A stretch of 9,260 nucleotides of DNA from a virus (Duplodnaviria > Heunggongvirae > Uroviricota > Caudoviricetes): IMG/VR virus record IMGVR_UViG_2671180543_000004, one strand, 5' to 3'. Below, in pieces: positions 1 through 9,260 of this stretch (its first letter is position 1; each line of letters opens with the position of its first letter). The notes under the pieces were generated by a model. That model made no database searches, was not told the DNA's origin, and was given only the letters and a program-made list of their open reading frames with translations. A program made the position numbers and the translations under genes.

Positions 1-192
1 GCAGACTTCACCGGAGTCGAACAACTGAACCAGTTTTTTCTGCCCGCTGTCACCCGGACGCCAGGCCAGCGTCGCCGAAGTATCACCAACGGATTTCTGC
101 CCCTGGGTTGTCGTTTTCCAGTCTGCATCTTTATCATCGAGATAAGTGTCATCTTCTGCATCAGCGGTCATTTCGCCAGGTTGCAGATCCTT
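1..192 (-). CDS. V: Major tail protein (lambda gpV-like); internal fragment, start hidden in the N-masked gap, 3' end beyond the window start
   Basis: Minus-strand translation of 192..1 in the frame with codons at 192-190 ... 3-1: [63 protein letters not shown] vs lambda gpV (recalled [62 protein letters not shown]), roughly lambda residues 43-106. The ORF track does not list it because both ends are cut. Confidence 0.8.
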
Positions 193-442
193 NNNNNNNN
201 NNNNNNNNNNNNNNNNNNNNNNNNNNNNNNNNNNNNNNNNNNNNNNNNNNNNNNNNNNNNNNNNNNNNNNNNNNNNNNNNNNNNNNNNNNNNNNNNNNNN
301 NNNNNNNNNNNNNNNNNNNNNNNNNNNNNNNNNNNNNNNNNNNNNNNNNNNNNNNNNNNNNNNNNNNNNNNNNNNNNNNNNNNNNNNNNNNNNNNNNNNN
401 NNNNNNNNNNNNNNNNNNNNNNNNNNNNNNNNNNNNNNNNNN

Positions 443-796
443 GGCCATCTCATTATCACGTTGATAGTTAAAACCGAGTGGGATCATGGTGTCGATGAGT
501 CCGGAAAGCACCGGAATATCCTTCATGGCCGGAAATATGGTGTTCTCCATCCACGTATCCAGCTCAGAATCCGGCGCCTGTGCACGGACGAAAACGGCAA
601 TATGCAGAACAGCCTGCCAGTCGTCCTCATCCGTCATTTTTCCGGTGTACTGCGCATCACTCAGCCACACCGCCACGGCGGGCAGTTCCTGCGCATCAAT
701 AAATGCCGGAAGCCCGTCAAAAAACGTGGCGCTGTCTCCACACTGTTCCCGAAGGCGTGCCAGCACGCTCTGACGGATTTGTGTGTGTCGGTTCAT
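443..796 (-). CDS. U: Tail terminator protein (lambda gpU-like); visible 5' part only, 3' end lies in the N-masked gap
   Basis: MNRHTQIRQSVLARL...GDSATFFDGLPAFIDAQELPAVAVWLSDAQYTG...DWQAVLHIAVFVRAQAPDSELDTWMENTIFPAMKDIP vs lambda gpU (MKHTELRAAVLDAL...TGATFFDGRPAVFDEADFPAVAVYLTGAEYTG...TWQAELHIEVFLPAQVPDSELDAWMESRIYPVMSDIP). 118 codons are visible before the N run. By lambda length the stop would fall near 400 inside the gap. The post-gap extension of the ORF to 161 is an artefact. Confidence 0.85.
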
Positions 797-3624: not shown

Positions 3625-3763
3625 ATTGTAAAAACCTCATATTGATGGTCAGCACTGACTTCATGGCATGGCCATGAGCATTTTCACGTCCGCATCACCG
3701 TCTGCTGACGTCTGTGGCACGCCACCCTGTACCGCTGCCGGTGAATGGTTCGCCATGAAATGT

Positions 3764-5230
3764 TCAAACATGGCGGTTGTGGATGCAGAAACCGGTTCTG
3801 CCCTGCCTGAGGCTGCCGCCNNNNNNNNNNNNNNNNNNNNNNNNNNNNNNNNNNNNNNNNNNNNNNNNNNNNNNNNNNNNNNNNNNNNNNNNNNNNNNNN
3901 NNNNNNNNNNNNNNNNNNNNNNNNNNNNNNNNTTTTCAGCCTGCGCCTCTGCCCCTTTTGCCTCATCCAGGGCCATAATCTGATCACGAAGTGAGGGTCC
4001 GGCATTCGCCTGCGGTGAAGCAGCCAGAATCGGACGGGCTTTTTCCACCGTCATCTCCGGCATCGCCGCCAGCGTTGCCGCCAGTTGTTCACGTCCTTTC
4101 GCCTCTTCACATGCCATAATGCGATCGGCTTCACTCTGCGCAGATACACCAGATTGTTGCGGTGCCGCCACGGCCAGAATCGCCCGGGCCTGCTCAACGC
4201 TCATACCCTGTTGCCCTGCCAGCATCGTGGCCAGTTGTTCACGTCCTTTCGCTTCCTGACACGTCAGGATCCCCATCACTCGCTGGTTCTCCTGCGCGGC
4301 AGCCTCCGTTGCAGTTAATTGCGGCATAGTGCCTCCTGTATCGTGTGTGTTCAGCGTCGCAGCCATCACGCTGATGGCGTCCGACGCATTGATTAATTCA
4401 TCCGCCAGTTCGGCCTCAATACCGGACTGACCTTCAAAAACGGCGGCCTCTGTTCCCATAACCGCATCCACAGATAAACCGGTATACATCGCCACTTTTT
4501 CAGCAAACATCCGGCGCGCCGCATCAATGCGCTGCTGCATGTCCTGGCGAACCTTTGCTGGCAGGGATTCAAACTGATTGCCATCCACCTTGTGCGATCC
4601 GGCGTAAATCAGCGTGATATCCACACCGGCCTGTGCCAGATGGCCGGCATAGCTGACATGGCCCATCATCACCCCAATGGAGCCGATACGGGATGTCTGG
4701 GTAACCAGCCGTCGGGAGCAGGCCGATGCCAGTAACATGGCGGCTGAACAGGCCGTGTCATTGCACAGTGCCCAGACAGGCTTCAGCTGCCGGAGACGGT
4801 AAATCATGTCAGCGCAGTCAAACGCGCCGGTGGCCTGCCCGCCAGAACTGTCAATGTCCAGCAGTACGCCCCGTACCTGAGTGTCCGCCATTGCCTGCTG
4901 AAGACAGGCGACAATGCCGTCATAGCCAGTCATTCCGGAAAATGGCCGCATGCCACCCAGCCGGTGTACCAGCGTGCCGGTCACCGGCAGTACAGCAATA
5001 CCGTTCACCACCCGGTAAACACGGGCAGGTCGTTTGCCTCCGGCCATGTACTCGTCCGTTTCAGCCAGCATCCCGGGAGCGTCAAGCTGTACCTGCTGTT
5101 GCGGTACCGAAAGGCTTGCTGCGCCCATCTCACGCCCGAGCGCGCAAAAGAAAACCCGCGCATAGGCGGGCTCCAGAAGCAGCGGCTCATTGAATGCCGC
5201 AGCGATAATATGTGAAAGATTACGTCTCAC
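3764..5230 (-). CDS. C: Head protease / minor capsid protein C with C-terminal scaffold (Nu3-like) module; S49/ClpP-like peptidase family
   Basis: N-terminal two-thirds aligns with lambda gpC (AFNEPLLLEPAYARVFFCAL; NGIAVLPVTGTLV; KPVWALCNDTACSAAMLLASACSRRLVTQTSRIGSIGVMMGH; ITLIYAGSHKVDGN). GTG start at 5228-5230, preceded by AGGAG, overlapping the end of B as in lambda. The C-terminal region holds about three 50-aa repeats similar to the single lambda module RIMGILNCEEAHGREEQARVLAETPGMTV. The masked gap 3821-3932 interrupts the 3' end, so the true stop may be 3764 or, in the other frame, 3661. Confidence 0.88.
   Translation of the reverse strand: MRRNLSHIIAAAFNEPLLLEPAYARVFFCALGREMGAASLSVPQQQVQLDAPGMLAETDEYMAGGKRPARVYRVVNGIAVLPVTGTLVHRLGGMRPFSGMTGYDGIVACLQQAMADTQVRGVLLDIDSSGGQATGAFDCADMIYRLRQLKPVWALCNDTACSAAMLLASACSRRLVTQTSRIGSIGVMMGHVSYAGHLAQAGVDITLIYAGSHKVDGNQFESLPAKVRQDMQQRIDAARRMFAEKVAMYTGLSVDAVMGTEAAVFEGQSGIEAELADELINASDAISVMAATLNTHDTGGTMPQLTATEAAAQENQRVMGILTCQEAKGREQLATMLAGQQGMSVEQARAILAVAAPQQSGVSAQSEADRIMACEEAKGREQLAATLAAMPEMTVEKARPILAASPQANAGPSLRDQIMALDEAKGAEAQAEXXXXXXXXXXXXXXXXXXXXXXXXXXXXXXXXXXXXXXGGSLRQGRTGFCIHNRHV
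3933..4380 (-). repeat. Intragenic tandem direct repeat, 150-bp period, about 3 imperfect copies, within the 3' part of gene C
   Basis: Identical 23-mer gccagttgttcacgtcctttcgc at 4080-4102 and 4230-4252. gccagaatcg at 4023-4032 and 4173-4182. Both pairs are 150 bp apart. A more diverged copy sits at about 3933-4080. Protein-level repeats: RVMGILTCQEAKGREQLATMLAGQQGMSVEQARAILAVAAPQ / RIMACEEAKGREQLAATLAAMPEMTVEKARPILAASPQ / QIMALDEAKGAEAQAE. Confidence 0.8.
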
Positions 5231-6813
5231 GTGATGTTGTCTCCTCTTCCGGCCTGCGACTCTCCGCTATCTGCTGCTGATACGCCTGGGCTATCCACAC
5301 CGGACGTGAGAGTCCGGCTTTTTCGCGCTCTGCGGATTCCCTGACCTGCTGGCGGAAAATGTCCTGATAATCTTCGCCCATCAGTGCCAGTTCTTTCTCA
5401 TACGTGCTCAGTCCGGCCTCAATGCGCATCACCGATTCCTGGACCTCCTTGAGCCCGTCAATGGCCATTCTTCCGGAGCTAATCCACTCTGCCCGTGACC
5501 AGGCTGAACGCGCCTGGTAAAAATCAAAACGCGCCCGTGGCGGACGAATAATCCCCCGAAGAAGCGCCTCTTCCAGCCAGCAGGAAAACATCTGCGTGGC
5601 CAGCCGGGCCGCAATAAATTTTCGCCGCCCCATAAAATAGCGCCACGACTCATTGGCGGAGGCGCGGGCACTTGAGTAACTGACCTTCGAGTAATCACGG
5701 GACAACTGTTCGTAGGAAACGCCAAGACCGGCTGCAATATACCGCAGCAGCGCCTGTTCAAGCGCCGAAAATCCATTGTCTGAATCCTGCGCTGTCTGCA
5801 GGTTCAGCGCATCGCCAGGAAAAAAGGTGCGGAATTTTAACACCGCCCAGCGTCACGTTATTCGTGTCATACCAGCGGGTGAACTTCTCCAGAATATTAA
5901 TAAGCGGATTATCCTGCTGACCTTGCGGTGCCCCCGCGATATATTCAAATGCCTTTTCGGTATCAAGTTCACTTTCGATTGTGGCTGCATACATCGCCTT
6001 CACAATGGCCGACTGAAGCTGCGTGGCCTGCAGGGAGTCCAGCATCTTCATCCGCTCCATTACGCTGTAAAACTGATTAGCCCCACGGGTCTGCCCGTCC
6101 TCCACCGGCTCAAAAATATGCAGCATGGCCGGACGCCCGGTGGGAAGCTCACGCGGGATCCGCTCCCAGCGTCCGGCACCAGAGAACGGAAAATCATCCT
6201 CACAGATATGGTACGCAATCGCCCGCCCATACCGATCGACCTCAACCCCGGCCCGCAGAAAGTGGTTCCCCATACCGTGTCCTGGCGTGTCCACCCGTTT
6301 CGGACTCACGGCTTTAAAACGCGTACGGAATAACTGCGTGGTTTCCGTATCCCAGACCGGCTGCACAAAGATTTCGCCGTTAAAGGCATGCACGCCCACC
6401 CCTTCACGGATAAATTCCGTAAACGTGCGTTTCCCTTCCACGTCGATCTCGCCAAACATTCCTTCTGCGTATTCCGACCAGGCTGCTTCCACCTCCCCGA
6501 CAAAACTTTTTGCCGTGGTCTCCCGCATCCCCAGCCAACGCCAGTTCAGACGGTAGCTGATAAGAAACATGTGCCCGACGATATGATCCTTATGCAGGGC
6601 CACCGCATTAGCCGCGATACCGTTATTGCGCACCAGATCATCTGCCCGGGCATTCCCCAGACGCAATGCAGGCAACAGGGCCGCATCGGCACTCTGCGCC
6701 GGTGGTAACCACTCTGCCATTTGCCCGCCAAATCCTGCGCCGCCTCCGTTGTAGCTGAGACTCTCACGAAGCGGAACGCCGTTCACATCAATCAGGACAG
6801 GCGTTCGTTTCAT
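5220..6813 (-). pseudogene. B: Portal protein (lambda gpB-like) split by a +1 frameshift into two ORFs (6813..5758 N-terminal, 5843..5220 C-terminal)
   Basis: N-terminal ORF (MKRTPVLID...GGGAGFGGQ...GNARADDLVRNNG...FEPVEDGQTRGANQFYSVMERMKMLDSLQATQLQSAIVKAMYAATIESELD...LGGVKIPHLF) and C-terminal ORF (FFPGDALNLQTAQDSDNGFS...LLRYIAAGLGVSYEQLSR...SGRMAIDGLKEVQE...) both align with lambda gpB. The frames switch at the T6 run (A6 on plus strand, 5820-5825). Removing one T restores PHLFPGDALNLQ, cf. lambda PHLMPGDSLNLQ. Stop TAA at 5220-5222. Confidence 0.85.
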
Positions 6814-7013
6814 AACCTCACTCCCAGCGGTCGGCGGCGTCGGGTCGTACCCAGAACCGACTCCGCATCGTTGATCGCACGGTTAAGCTCATTCAGGGAC
6901 GCTGCCGTATATTCGATCCTGCGACCGTCTTTCTGTACCGACACAACCCGTTTACCGGTTAATAAATCAAGGCGCGCCTGACGCAGCGCCTGCAGTTCAG
7001 CGACTGTAACCAT
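6810..7013 (-). CDS. W: Head-tail joining / head completion protein (lambda gpW-like), 67 aa
   Basis: MVTVAELQALRQARLDLLTGKRVVSVQKDGRRIEYTAASL... vs lambda gpW (recalled ...[29 protein letters not shown]...). ATG at 7011-7013 directly follows the A stop. Its TGA (6810-6812) overlaps the B ATG (6811-6813). Confidence 0.9.
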   Translation of the reverse strand: MVTVAELQALRQARLDLLTGKRVVSVQKDGRRIEYTAASLNELNRAINDAESVLGTTRRRRPLGVRL

Positions 7014-8924
7014 TCACTCCTCCGGACAGCTTCGCTGCCAGTTCTTCAAGGGTCGGTTGTGCAGTTGCATCCTTGCGGGATGCAACTGCACAGCCAGATC
7101 AAGTTGCCAGCGTTGCACGGACACACGTAATGCCGCATAGGCATACACCAGGCAGTCCAGCGCTTCGTTACGCCGCTTTTTGTTATCCCACAACAGACGC
7201 ATCTTTCCTTTTTCCCACTTTTCCACCAGTTCCTCCGCCACCAGTTGTTGTGCCTCTGTCTGCGAAAAAATCTCCGGATTATCAGGAAAGCGGATGGCAT
7301 ACGATGTGGCCTCATTCACAGGGGTGGGATCGGCCTTCATTCGGGCATAGAGAATTTCTTTTGCGGTATCCGTCCCCACCTCACACAGATACACACCCCG
7401 CTGATTGCGGGTTTTCGGCATGGTGATCACCGGCTTGCCATAGACAGAGGCACCTTTTACCGGCAGTACCCGGAAAATACCGTGTTTTTTTGACCTCTGA
7501 TACACGATTTCGCCATCGATCCCCCCGATATCCCAGCAGACACGGGAAATGGTCATTTCGGTACCGTCTGCATGGCGGTATTTTTTATTGATCGCCGCAT
7601 CCACACGTAACAGCGTCTCTTCCTCATCAGGACGTCCCATGATGATGATTTTATCCACCAGAAAGGCTTCCTCTCCCGGAGCCCACCCCCAGACATACAT
7701 CTCAAAACGGTTTCGCTGCGAGTCAATGCCCGCCGTCAGATAAACCACCCGGACAGGCACCGTTGCCGTGTAAGGCACAACCTTATCCATCAGTACCTGG
7801 TGATCGAGTTTTTCGCCCACGGCCTCTTCCCAGGTCTCGCCCAGCGTGGTGTTCACAAAAGTTTTCACGCCGTTGGGATCTTTCAGTGCATCCAGCCAGT
7901 CACAGACTATCTGTACCCTGGTGGTGAACGGACTGTACGCCGTCCATATATGGAAAGTGATGGAGCGCGGCGGCGGAATTTCATTACCCGAAGCACTGAA
8001 AAACGTCAGACCGTCACACGTCCACATCCCGGTATTGTCACAAATCCAGCGCCCCCCGGTCTGATCAAGTTCAGACTGACGGATCACGCAGCCATTATGT
8101 TCACACAGGTAATACACCGTTTCCGGTTTACCCTTCTCCCATTTCAGGCCAAACGACGTCGCATCATCGCCAAACTTCAGATACTGCTCCTCCCCGCAAT
8201 GAGGGCAAGGGACATAAAACCGCATGAAATGCGCAGATTCATTCGCAGCTTTTTCAATCTGACAGGAGCCTTTAATTTTTGGCGTTGAACCGCGTATGGA
8301 TTTTGGCCATACCGAACCTTCAATACGTTTATCGCCAAGCAGTGTTGGCGAACCTTCTTTTTCCACATCCGGTTCAAACGAGGAGAGTTCGTCATAGCAG
8401 ACCACATCGACAGATTTTTCACGGTAGTTTTTGGCAGCAGCACCACCCAAACACCAGAACCCCACACCAGAGGAAAAACGCTTCAGTGTGAGCGTATTAT
8501 CCCGGTGTTTCCGGCCCAGCCAGGGAGAAAGTTTTTTCAGGCAAGGAACATCACGAATTGTTGCTTCCACGTGAGACTTCATAAAATCTTCAGCAGCTGA
8601 GTCCGTCGGCTGAAAAAGAAGAGTGTTGCGGGATTTGTGCTCAATAAAATACCCGATCACACCAAGCACCATTTTTGTATAACCAACACGGGCAGATTTA
8701 ATCAGGTTAACTGTACGAATCTCGTCATTGCCCATGCAGTTCATGATGGCGACCTGAAACTGCAGCGTTTTCCATTCCCCCTCACCGTATGACGATTCTT
8801 TAGGCAGGTAATAATTTTGATCGGCCCATTCTACAGCCGTCACCGGCAATACCCTGACCAGTGGCTGCAGTGCGATAGTGACTGCCACCATCATATTACT
8901 CAGTTGTTGTTCTGATATATTCAT
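7014..8924 (-). CDS. A: Terminase large subunit (lambda gpA-like), 636 aa
   Basis: Alignable with lambda gpA along its whole length (MNISEQQ... vs lambda MNISNSQ...; TAVEWADQNYYLPKESSYGEGEWKTL vs PQTAVEWADANYYLPKESAYQEGRWETL; KSARVGYTK ATPase motif; FMRFYVPCPHCGEEQYLKFGD; YLTAGIDSQ; RRNEALDC). The ORF track extends to a TTG at 8981, but homology begins at ATG 8922-8924 (MNIS). Stop TGA at 7014-7016. Confidence 0.95.
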   Translation of the reverse strand: MNISEQQLSNMMVAVTIALQPLVRVLPVTAVEWADQNYYLPKESSYGEGEWKTLQFQVAIMNCMGNDEIRTVNLIKSARVGYTKMVLGVIGYFIEHKSRNTLLFQPTDSAAEDFMKSHVEATIRDVPCLKKLSPWLGRKHRDNTLTLKRFSSGVGFWCLGGAAAKNYREKSVDVVCYDELSSFEPDVEKEGSPTLLGDKRIEGSVWPKSIRGSTPKIKGSCQIEKAANESAHFMRFYVPCPHCGEEQYLKFGDDATSFGLKWEKGKPETVYYLCEHNGCVIRQSELDQTGGRWICDNTGMWTCDGLTFFSASGNEIPPPRSITFHIWTAYSPFTTRVQIVCDWLDALKDPNGVKTFVNTTLGETWEEAVGEKLDHQVLMDKVVPYTATVPVRVVYLTAGIDSQRNRFEMYVWGWAPGEEAFLVDKIIIMGRPDEEETLLRVDAAINKKYRHADGTEMTISRVCWDIGGIDGEIVYQRSKKHGIFRVLPVKGASVYGKPVITMPKTRNQRGVYLCEVGTDTAKEILYARMKADPTPVNEATSYAIRFPDNPEIFSQTEAQQLVAEELVEKWEKGKMRLLWDNKKRRNEALDCLVYAYAALRVSVQRWQLDLAVQLHPARMQLHNRPLKNWQRSCPEE

Positions 8925-9219
8925 CGAGTAAATCCGGTAATTTATCCCCCGCACGCGCGCACTGATTCGCTCCCTTAGCAATAAGGATTTTCAGATGATC
9001 AATATGACGCGGCGTTAAATCCGGGAACTGTCGTTGCATGGACAAAGGAATGGAGTCAAGCGTACTGGATAAAGCCATCGCCAGCTTACTAAGGGCAAAA
9101 ATACAAAATCCGGTATCGATAAGATTTCCTTTTGACACCTGATTTTTTAACTGCTGTGCGACAGCCTGTTCTGCGGTCAGTTCCCATCTGGCAATGAGTA
9201 GTTTGAGGTGTACTGGCAA
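8896..9219 (-). CDS. nu1: Terminase small subunit (lambda Nu1-like), C-terminal portion only; possibly N-terminally truncated
   Basis: Translation ...TGFCIFALSKLAMALSSTLDSIPLSMQRQFPDLTPRHIDHLKILIAKGANQ...LPDLLDEYI aligns with the C-terminal half of lambda Nu1 (recalled ...TAFCTFVLSRIAGEIASILDGLPLSVQRRFPELENRHVDFLKRDIIKAMNK...IPGLLSEYI). Stop TAA at 8896-8898. The 3' end overlaps the A start (8924) by 29 nt, as in lambda. The ORF opens with TTG at 9217-9219 and an in-frame TAG lies at 9229-9231, so the N-terminal domain is not encoded in this frame. Confidence 0.75.
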   Translation of the reverse strand: MPVHLKLLIARWELTAEQAVAQQLKNQVSKGNLIDTGFCIFALSKLAMALSSTLDSIPLSMQRQFPDLTPRHIDHLKILIAKGANQCARAGDKLPDLLDEYIRTTTE

Positions 9220-9260
9220 TAGCGGACACTACCATTTGTTCTTTTTTTAAGCAGCCATCT

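What the first reader, a model, noticed from the sequence alone, without database searches (positions are those of the whole stretch)
5758..5843. Portal gene B is split by a +1 frameshift at an A6/T6 homopolymer (5820-5825)
Both halves of the portal protein are well conserved relative to lambda gpB but lie in different frames. The frames switch exactly at a six-base homopolymer, and deleting one base restores a continuous reading PHLFPGDALNLQ that matches lambda PHLMPGDSLNLQ. Lambda-type portals are made from a single ORF with no known programmed shift. So this is either a sequencing or assembly indel (homopolymers are the classic site) or a real inactivating mutation. A real mutation would make this a defective prophage unable to form heads, even though the rest of the module looks intact.
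Basis: partly seen in the sequence, partly recalled or inferred. Interest (0 to 1): 0.55.

Follow-up and report, generated by a model that had tools for sequence, protein, structure and literature searches.

The report
Frameshifted portal pseudogene, Shigella flexneri prophage
The phage portal gene really is broken by one extra T in a T5 run, and the same break is inherited across Shigella flexneri genomes, so it is an ordinary pseudogene in a prophage that is damaged in other places too, not a sequencing error or a recoding signal.

Summary
The lambda/phage-21-type portal gene (window 5220-6813, minus strand) is split at a T6 run (A6 on the plus strand, 5820-5825). Removing one T gives a continuous 530-aa protein that is 61% identical to lambda gpB.

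The sequencing-error reading is refuted.
- The exact 351-aa N-terminal product is indexed in 2587 collection blocks and on at least 1000 contigs.
- These include the independently sequenced S. flexneri genomes 301, 2457T, 8401 and 2002017.
- All 13 distinct Shigella-type loci I read have T6.
- None of 5426 complete E. coli genomes carries T6, and no listed row from the 20 phage records does. The nearest intact E. coli copy differs only by the extra T and one SNP.

This is therefore a derived, vertically inherited insertion from replication slippage.

The prophage is defective in other ways.
- IS600 removes the N-terminus of Nu1.
- In the window and about half of the loci, a quasipalindrome-type change replaces the last 25-30 residues of the large terminase.

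No recoding signals are present. The site CUU_UUU_UCC is a UUU_Ynn tetranucleotide, which is known to be +1 shift-prone, so a trace of full-length portal is possible but untested.

The two fragments have been in GenBank as adjacent CDSs since the first S. flexneri genomes. Interest is low.

The parts
5820..5825 (-). T6 homopolymer on the coding strand (A6 on the plus strand). This is the site of the one-base insertion; intact relatives have T5.
5220..6813 (-). Whole portal (gpB / phage 21 gp4-type) pseudogene, 1594 nt against 1593 nt in intact copies.
5758..6813 (-). N-terminal portal ORF of 351 aa. Residues 1-331 are authentic and the last 20 residues are an out-of-frame tail. It is identical to AAN42336/AAP16213 and others from S. 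flexneri.
5220..5843 (-). C-terminal portal ORF of 207 aa from a fortuitous GTG. Authentic portal sequence starts at the T run. It is identical to AAN42337/AAP16214.
6810..7013 (-). gpW-type head-tail joining gene, intact, immediately upstream of the portal gene.
7014..8924 (-). Large terminase (gpA type), 636 aa instead of 642. Its C-terminal tail is replaced because of a second frameshift.
7055..7095 (.). 18-nt inverted repeat, 94% complementary with a perfect 15-bp core, created by the change TGGCG to AGTT (net -1). It has the signature of a quasipalindrome template switch. The change is present in 5 of the 10 loci L003-L012.
8896..9204 (-). Remnant of the small terminase (Nu1 type) that lacks about the first 67 codons.
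9205..9260 (.). End of an IS600 copy that truncates Nu1. The junction is shared by all S. flexneri loci read.
3661..5230 (-). C / S49 protease-scaffold gene. It looks frame-broken only because of the N run at 3821-3932. It is an intact 501 aa in the complete genomes.

Best explanation
A single T was inserted into a T5 run of the portal gene, the usual outcome of strand slippage during replication. It happened in a lambdoid (phage-21/lambda head type) prophage in an ancestor of the sampled Shigella flexneri lineages and has been inherited vertically since.

Translation from the portal start reads 331 authentic residues, then 20 out-of-frame residues, then a UGA stop. The product lacks the last ~200 residues of the portal, including the final fifth of the Pfam portal domain, so it is inferred to be unable to form a working portal ring.

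The gene is a pseudogene in a prophage that cannot produce particles in any case. IS600 has removed the start of Nu1 and the region upstream of it. In part of the lineage, including this window, the prohead-docking C-terminus of the large terminase is also frameshifted.

Shown: the insertion, its derived state, its recurrence, and the other lesions. Inferred: the slippage mechanism, loss of portal function, and loss of particle formation.
For: - The T6 run and frame break sit at 5820-5825.
- Pfam PF05136 is split at profile position 288 and becomes contiguous after removing one T.
- The repaired protein is 61% identical to lambda gpB over its full length and matches solved lambda portal chains such as 8k38 at E=4e-213.
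- The exact 351-aa product is listed in 2587 blocks of the assembly collection, 31 of them with contigs over 1 Mb.
- It occurs on at least 1000 contigs, with accessions from S. flexneri 301, 2457T, 8401 and 2002017. The 207-aa product is the adjacent CDS in 301 and 2457T.
- T6 is present in 10 of 10 loci L003-L012, in L014 (L015 is the same record as L008), and in two IMG/VR contigs, L017 and L020.
- T5 is present in both intact E. coli prophages aligned base by base.
- All 40 listed E. coli rows and all 18 listed full-coverage phage rows, including phage 21, span 1593 nt against the 1594-nt query.
- T5 is also present in four IMG/VR contigs.
- A 70-nt probe across the site found no exact T6 match in 5426 complete E. 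coli genomes; the best match was 98.6%, equal to the one gap.
- The portal DNA differs from the intact E. coli CFSAN029787 copy only by the extra T plus one SNP. In the other S. flexneri sub-lineage (L004, L009, L011, L012) it differs by the extra T alone.
- Other lesions are the terL tail change, Nu1 cut by IS600, and the truncated Rz and IS-interrupted early region in the flanks.
- In lambda, loss of only the last 5 residues of gpA abolishes prohead docking (PMC4856287).
Against: - Nothing here measures protein or particle production.
- All other head and tail ORFs from W to the tape measure remain full length in all ten loci. This fits a recent inactivation but would also fit some retained use.
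- The shift site is a UUU_Ynn tetranucleotide, a class reported to be +1 shift-prone (PMC5009743), so the allele may be leaky rather than null.
- I did not see raw reads for the particular assembly the window comes from. That assembly contains N runs.
Confidence: 0.93

Rival explanations
1. A sequencing or assembly error: a homopolymer miscall in the source assembly, with the real gene having T5 and being intact.
For: - Homopolymers are the classic site of indel errors.
- The window comes from an assembly with N runs (193-442 and 3821-3932) whose lengths do not match the real sequence, so it is probably a draft.
Against: - The same T6 appears in every one of 13 distinct Shigella-type loci read.
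- The exact truncated protein occurs in 2587 collection blocks and on at least 1000 contigs.
- These include finished genomes deposited by different groups over about 20 years: AE014073 (2457T), Sf301, Sf8401, 2002017, CP- and LR-prefixed chromosomes.
- An error would not recur identically across platforms while being absent from 5426 E. coli genomes.
Confidence: 0.01
2. Leaky or compensatory +1 ribosomal frameshifting. With UUU in the P site, tRNA-Phe re-pairs one base forward on UUU_U and the ribosome continues with CCU GGC GAU. This would yield a small amount of authentic full-length portal (HLFPGD...) from the T6 allele, either incidentally or with some use.
For: - The site CUU_UUU_UCC allows perfect re-pairing in the +1 frame, and the shifted product would have exactly the wild-type sequence.
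- Downstream head and tail ORFs are all still open.
Against: - The next 0-frame codon is UCC, not a stop, and no Shine-Dalgarno-like stimulator lies just upstream.
- No functional phage or intact prophage has T6, so the shift is not a conserved feature.
- The element lacks the Nu1 N-terminus and has an IS600 where the upstream packaging region should be. In this lineage it also has a disabled terminase tail, so full-length portal would have nothing to work with.
- Any shifting is expected to be at the per-cent level or below. That figure is my inference and was not measured.
Confidence: 0.05
3. Transcriptional slippage or phase variation on the T run, with reversible T5/T6 switching or RNA polymerase stuttering that restores the frame in a fraction of cells or transcripts.
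For: - The break is in a homopolymer.
- S. flexneri does use transcriptional slippage in some type III secretion genes (PMC5009743).
Against: - The bacterial cases cited in that review involve runs of about 9 A or T. Six is short.
- All 13 distinct Shigella loci have exactly T6 and all non-Shigella relatives exactly T5, with no mixed states. That is the pattern of one fixed mutation, not of switching.
Confidence: 0.01

Closest known systems
Lambda gpB / phage 21 gp4 portal protein (Pfam PF05136, Phage_portal_2)
   Same: - The repaired product is 61% identical to gpB over 526 residues and about 93% identical in DNA to the phage 21 portal.
- The gene order Nu1-A-W-B-C-D-E is the same.
- It matches solved lambda portal chains 8k38/8xot at E=4e-213.
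   Different: Here the gene carries a one-base insertion, so no single ORF encodes the protein. Only residues 1-331 are made in frame.
The annotated pair of 'head-tail preconnector gp5' CDSs of S. flexneri 2a 301 and 2457T (AAN42336/AAN42337, AAP16213/AAP16214)
   Same: Their sequences are identical to the two window ORFs. The DNA context is the same, including the IS600 junction.
   Different: There is no biological difference. The window is another copy of this locus with two N-filled gaps. I found no paper in the searchable library that discusses this pseudogene specifically.
Degraded ('grounded') lambdoid prophages of Shigella and E. coli, in which point frameshifts and IS insertions disable morphogenesis genes
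   Same: - There are multiple independent lesions in one element: a homopolymer insertion, a quasipalindrome change, and IS600 and other IS insertions.
- The lesions are inherited vertically.
   Different: The head and tail ORFs other than Nu1, A and B are still open, and the portal has no damage beyond the one base. Decay is therefore at an early stage in this module.
prfB-type programmed +1 frameshift (CUU_UGA with an upstream Shine-Dalgarno-like element), and incidental UUU_Ynn +1 shifting
   Same: A CUU_UUU_U string allows +1 re-pairing. The direction of shift needed is +1.
   Different: There is no stop or rare codon in the A site, no upstream stimulator, and no conservation of the site in relatives.

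Membership tests
Lambda-family portal protein (PF05136) | Significant match to the family profile above the curated cut-off. | tested here: met
   The N-fragment scores 228.7 bits, the C-fragment 80.4 bits and the repaired protein 326.5 bits, against a cut-off of 32.9.
Lambda-family portal protein (PF05136) | Full-length colinear similarity to lambda gpB, and a gene position between W and the C protease. | tested here: met
   61% identity over 526 residues after removing one T. The gene order is shown.
Lambda-family portal protein (PF05136) | Encoded by one uninterrupted ORF, i.e. a functional gene. | tested here: not met
   Two overlapping ORFs lie in different frames and the profile is split at position 288. 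The window copy is a pseudogene of this family.
Programmed +1 ribosomal frameshift (prfB-like) | A slippery codon that allows P-site tRNA re-pairing in the +1 frame. | tested here: met
   The site is CUU_UUU_U on the coding strand. UUU_Ynn is noted as shift-prone.
Programmed +1 ribosomal frameshift (prfB-like) | A slow-to-decode 0-frame A-site codon (stop or rare codon). | tested here: not met
   The next 0-frame codon is UCC (Ser), and the 0 frame runs on for 20 codons before a UGA. That UCC is not a rare codon in E. coli or Shigella rests on my general knowledge.
Programmed +1 ribosomal frameshift (prfB-like) | A Shine-Dalgarno-like stimulator a few bases upstream of the shift site. | tested here: not met
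   The upstream sequence is GGUGUUAAAAUUCCGCAC, with no AGGAGG- or GGGGG-like string next to the site.
Programmed +1 ribosomal frameshift (prfB-like) | The frameshift configuration is conserved among homologues. | tested here: not met
   All listed phage rows, all listed E. coli prophage rows and four IMG/VR contigs have the in-frame T5 form.
Transcriptional slippage / phase-variable tract | A long homopolymer (about 9 A or T in the known bacterial cases) and length heterogeneity between or within strains. | tested here: not met
   The run is 6 nt. It is invariant at T6 in 13 Shigella-type loci and at T5 elsewhere. The run length in known cases is from PMC5009743.
Pseudogene in a defective prophage | A derived disabling change relative to otherwise near-identical intact orthologues. 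| tested here: met
   The portal differs from the intact E. coli copy by the extra T and 0-1 SNP.
Pseudogene in a defective prophage | The lesion is inherited across a host lineage, not private to one assembly. | tested here: met
   2587 collection blocks and at least 1000 contigs, including four named S. flexneri reference strains.
Pseudogene in a defective prophage | Further independent disabling lesions in the same element. | tested here: met
   IS600 in Nu1, the terL tail frameshift, a truncated Rz and IS elements in the early region.
Pseudogene in a defective prophage | No particle formation and no full-length protein. | not testable with these tools
   This needs induction experiments and proteomics.

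The most novel reading that the evidence does not exclude
The T6 allele is leaky rather than null. tRNA-Phe slips +1 on UUU_U and gives per-cent-level, sequence-perfect full-length portal. Because every other head and tail ORF from W to the tape measure is still open, the S. flexneri remnant could still assemble some proheads or particles, for example when a co-resident or superinfecting lambdoid phage supplies terminase and cos. That would be a natural case of a compensated indel in a phage structural gene.
Probability: 0.05. Interest if true: 0.4.

Novelty: already known. Interest (0 to 1): 0.1.

Why it matters
It matters little biologically. It is one more disabled gene in the IS-ridden, pseudogene-rich genome of S. 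flexneri.

Its practical value is as a caution for annotation. A homopolymer frameshift in a draft assembly can be checked against public assemblies, and this one should not be "corrected". The split portal, together with the IS600-cut Nu1, marks this prophage remnant as incapable of autonomous packaging.

The terminase quasipalindrome change, present in only part of the lineage, could serve as a phylogenetic marker within S. flexneri.

Tried and rejected
- Sequencing error was rejected after the exact-protein look-ups and base-level comparison of 13 Shigella-type loci.
- Programmed recoding and transcriptional slippage were rejected. Stimulatory elements are absent, the run is short, and all functional relatives have T5.
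- An apparent second frame break in the C protease gene (ORFs 3764..5230 and 3661..4005) turned out to be an artefact. The 112-N run at 3821-3932 stands in for 48 real bases, and C is an intact 501 aa in the complete genomes.
- Likewise, the 211-aa ORF at 161..796 runs through the 250-N run at 193-442 and is not real.
- The S. flexneri 2457T and 301 genome papers (PMC153260, PMC137130) are not held.
- Two full-text searches found no paper describing this particular pseudogene.
- The window's exact source assembly was not identified. No complete E. coli RefSeq genome holds it. The only two hits in the one-genome-per-species collection (S. flexneri SFBU1023 and 'E. coli' ECMA0423) differ from the window by two extra indels in terL.
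- One call failed on a format error and was repeated.
- I did not run the large homology searches, structure prediction or fold searches because the answer did not depend on them.

Full report
**What is in the sequence**

The window carries, on its minus strand, the packaging and head module of a lambdoid prophage. The gene order is a Nu1 remnant, A (large terminase), W, B (portal), C (S49 protease/scaffold), D, E, FI, FII, Z, U, V.

At 5820-5825 the plus strand reads AAAAAA. On the coding strand this is CAC CTT TTT TCC TGG CGA.

The ORF that starts at the portal ATG (6813) runs to a TGA at 5758-5760. Its last 20 residues, SWRCAEPADSAGFRQWIFGA, resemble nothing in portals. The frame one base ahead reads FFPGDALNLQTAQDSDNGF... 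and continues to the normal portal stop at 5220. The reported span 5758-5843 is exactly the overlap of these two ORFs.

Pfam's lambda-family portal model (PF05136, 354 positions) matches as follows:
- The first ORF covers positions 2-288.
- The second ORF covers positions 288-354.
- After deleting one T, a single 530-aa protein covers positions 2-354.

The repaired protein is 61% identical to lambda gpB over 526 residues. The junction reads PHLFPGDALNLQ against lambda PHLMPGDSLNLQ. It also hits the solved lambda portal chains (8k38 and others) at E=4e-213.

**Error or real mutation**

I ran that test and it is decisive.

The exact 351-aa product of the first ORF is indexed in 2587 blocks of the public assembly collection, 31 of which hold contigs longer than 1 Mb. 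It is recorded on at least 1000 contigs, which is the counting cap. Its protein accessions come from S. flexneri 2a 301, 2a 2457T, 5 str. 8401 and 2002017. The 207-aa second ORF is the adjacent CDS in 301 and 2457T.

I read the DNA of ten such places (L003-L012), including AE014073 and several CP-, LR- and NCTC-type records. All ten have T6. The only two matches in the one-genome-per-species collection also have T6: S. flexneri SFBU1023 and a 4.44-Mb record labelled E. coli ECMA0423, which is the same record as L008. Two IMG/VR contigs have T6 as well.

Outside these Shigella-type records, relatives lack the extra base:
- The two intact E. coli prophages that I aligned base by base have T5.
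- Four IMG/VR contigs have T5.
- All 40 listed E. coli rows and all 18 listed full-coverage phage rows, among them phage 21, span 1593 nt against the 1594-nt query.
- A 70-nt probe centred on the run found no exact match in 5426 complete E. coli genomes. The best match was 98.6%, which equals the single gap.

A base-calling error cannot recur identically in finished genomes made by different groups and methods and be absent everywhere else. T6 is a real allele.

**Derived state and age**

The window's portal DNA differs from the intact copy in E. coli CFSAN029787 only by the extra T and one A/G substitution at CDS position 1334. In a second S. flexneri sub-lineage (L004, L009, L011, L012) it differs by the extra T alone.

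So T5 is ancestral, and the insertion is the only damage in the gene. It predates the split of the two sub-lineages, which differ by 11-25 SNPs across the window.

The mechanism is inferred, not shown. A single-base expansion of a homopolymer by strand slippage during replication is the simplest account of T5 to T6.

**The prophage is not otherwise intact**

There are three further observations in or next to the window.

1. Nu1 is truncated. Homology to intact prophages stops at window 9204, inside Nu1. About 67 N-terminal codons are missing, and 9205-9260 is the end of an IS600 copy. All ten S. flexneri loci share this junction.

2. The large terminase tail is replaced. At about 7084-7088 the window has AGTT (coding strand) where intact relatives have TGGCG.
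   - This net -1 change converts an imperfect palindrome into an 18-nt inverted repeat with a perfect 15-bp core.
   - That is the signature of a quasipalindrome template switch.
   - It replaces the last 30 residues of the 642-aa protein (LAASRKDATAQPTLEELAAKLSGGVNGYSR) with a 24-residue unrelated tail, giving 636 aa.
   - In lambda, loss of just the last five residues of gpA abolishes docking on the portal (PMC4856287). I therefore predict this terminase to be inactive for packaging.
   - The change is present in 5 of the 10 loci L003-L012, and in L017 and L020, so it is younger than the portal frameshift.

3. The flanks in the complete genomes show a truncated Rz gene, several IS elements and an IS-interrupted early region.

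By contrast, W, C, D, E, FI, FII, Z, U, V, G, T and H keep full-length ORFs in all ten loci, apart from a shorter H in one and a slightly shorter T call in two. Given 99.9% identity to intact E. coli copies, recent inactivation is enough to explain this.

**Recoding**

The frame could be restored by a +1 ribosomal shift. The site CUU_UUU_UCC allows tRNA-Phe to re-pair perfectly one base forward, which would give the wild-type sequence.

UUU_Ynn is reported to be especially prone to +1 shifting in bacteria even without a neighbouring stop codon (PMC5009743). A trace of full-length portal is therefore plausible.

The features that define programmed +1 sites are absent:
- The next codon is an ordinary UCC, not a stop or rare codon.
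- There is no Shine-Dalgarno-like element just upstream.
- No functional relative has the shifted configuration.

Transcriptional slippage in bacteria is documented on runs of about nine A or T. This run is six and shows no length variation among strains. I rate functional recoding as very unlikely and incidental leakiness as possible but untested.

**Comparison with what is known, and verdict**

The gene is a member by descent of the lambda-family portal proteins, but it fails the single-uninterrupted-ORF criterion. It is a pseudogene of that family.

The two fragments have been public as adjacent 'head-tail preconnector gp5' CDSs since the first S. flexneri genomes. I found no paper in the searchable library that discusses them, and the two original genome papers are not held.

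This is an already known, ordinary feature. It is a fixed homopolymer frameshift in a defective, IS-ridden prophage of a pathogen well known (from general knowledge) for pseudogene accumulation.

**Caveats**

The window has two N runs (193-442 and 3821-3932). Their lengths, 250 and 112, exceed the real sequence in complete genomes, 184 and 48 nt. ORFs that cross them are artefacts. The window probably comes from a draft assembly that I could not identify. No expression or particle data were available.

Noticed in passing
window 7055-7095 (change at about 7084-7088), minus-strand terL: A second frameshift. TGGCG in intact relatives is AGTT here (net -1), which turns an imperfect palindrome into an 18-nt inverted repeat with a perfect 15-bp core. 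This has the signature of a quasipalindrome template switch. It replaces the prohead-docking C-terminus of the large terminase (636 aa against 642 aa). It is present in 5 of the 10 S. flexneri loci, so it is polymorphic within the species.
   Followed up: yes
window 8896-9260: The small terminase gene (Nu1 type) lacks about its first 67 codons. An IS600 end abuts it at 9204/9205. The junction is shared by all S. flexneri loci read.
   Followed up: yes
window 193-442 and 3821-3932: Two runs of N (250 and 112 nt) stand in for 184 and 48 nt of real sequence in complete S. flexneri genomes, a consistent excess of 66 and 64 nt. They are gap or mask placeholders. They create a false frame break in the C protease gene and a false 211-aa ORF at 161..796.
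   Followed up: yes
L008/L015 and L014, corresponding to window about 8199 and about 8326: S. flexneri SFBU1023 and 'E. coli' ECMA0423 carry two further single-base indels (-1 and +1, about 125 nt apart) in terL. In L008 these split terL into 201-aa and 397-aa ORFs. This is either further decay in that sub-lineage or errors in those assemblies.
   Followed up: partly
L003:2321-3742: One S. flexneri assembly (GCA_008973575.1) has a group II intron-type reverse transcriptase ORF (RVT_1 + GIIM, 473 aa) between the Q antiterminator and the holin gene of this prophage. It is absent from the other loci.
   Followed up: no
L002:4439-5629 (E. coli FDAARGOS_943): The closest E. coli relative of the whole window (98.4%) has an intact T5 portal, but carries an ISEc60 (IS4-like) insertion between the Z-type tail gene and FII. 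That is an independent route to a damaged prophage of the same type.
   Followed up: no
E. coli CFSAN029787, RMDEC364, VL46, VL40: These genomes each hold three places matching the portal region, so there are several co-resident lambdoid prophages with near-identical head genes. This gives scope for recombination between copies.
   Followed up: no
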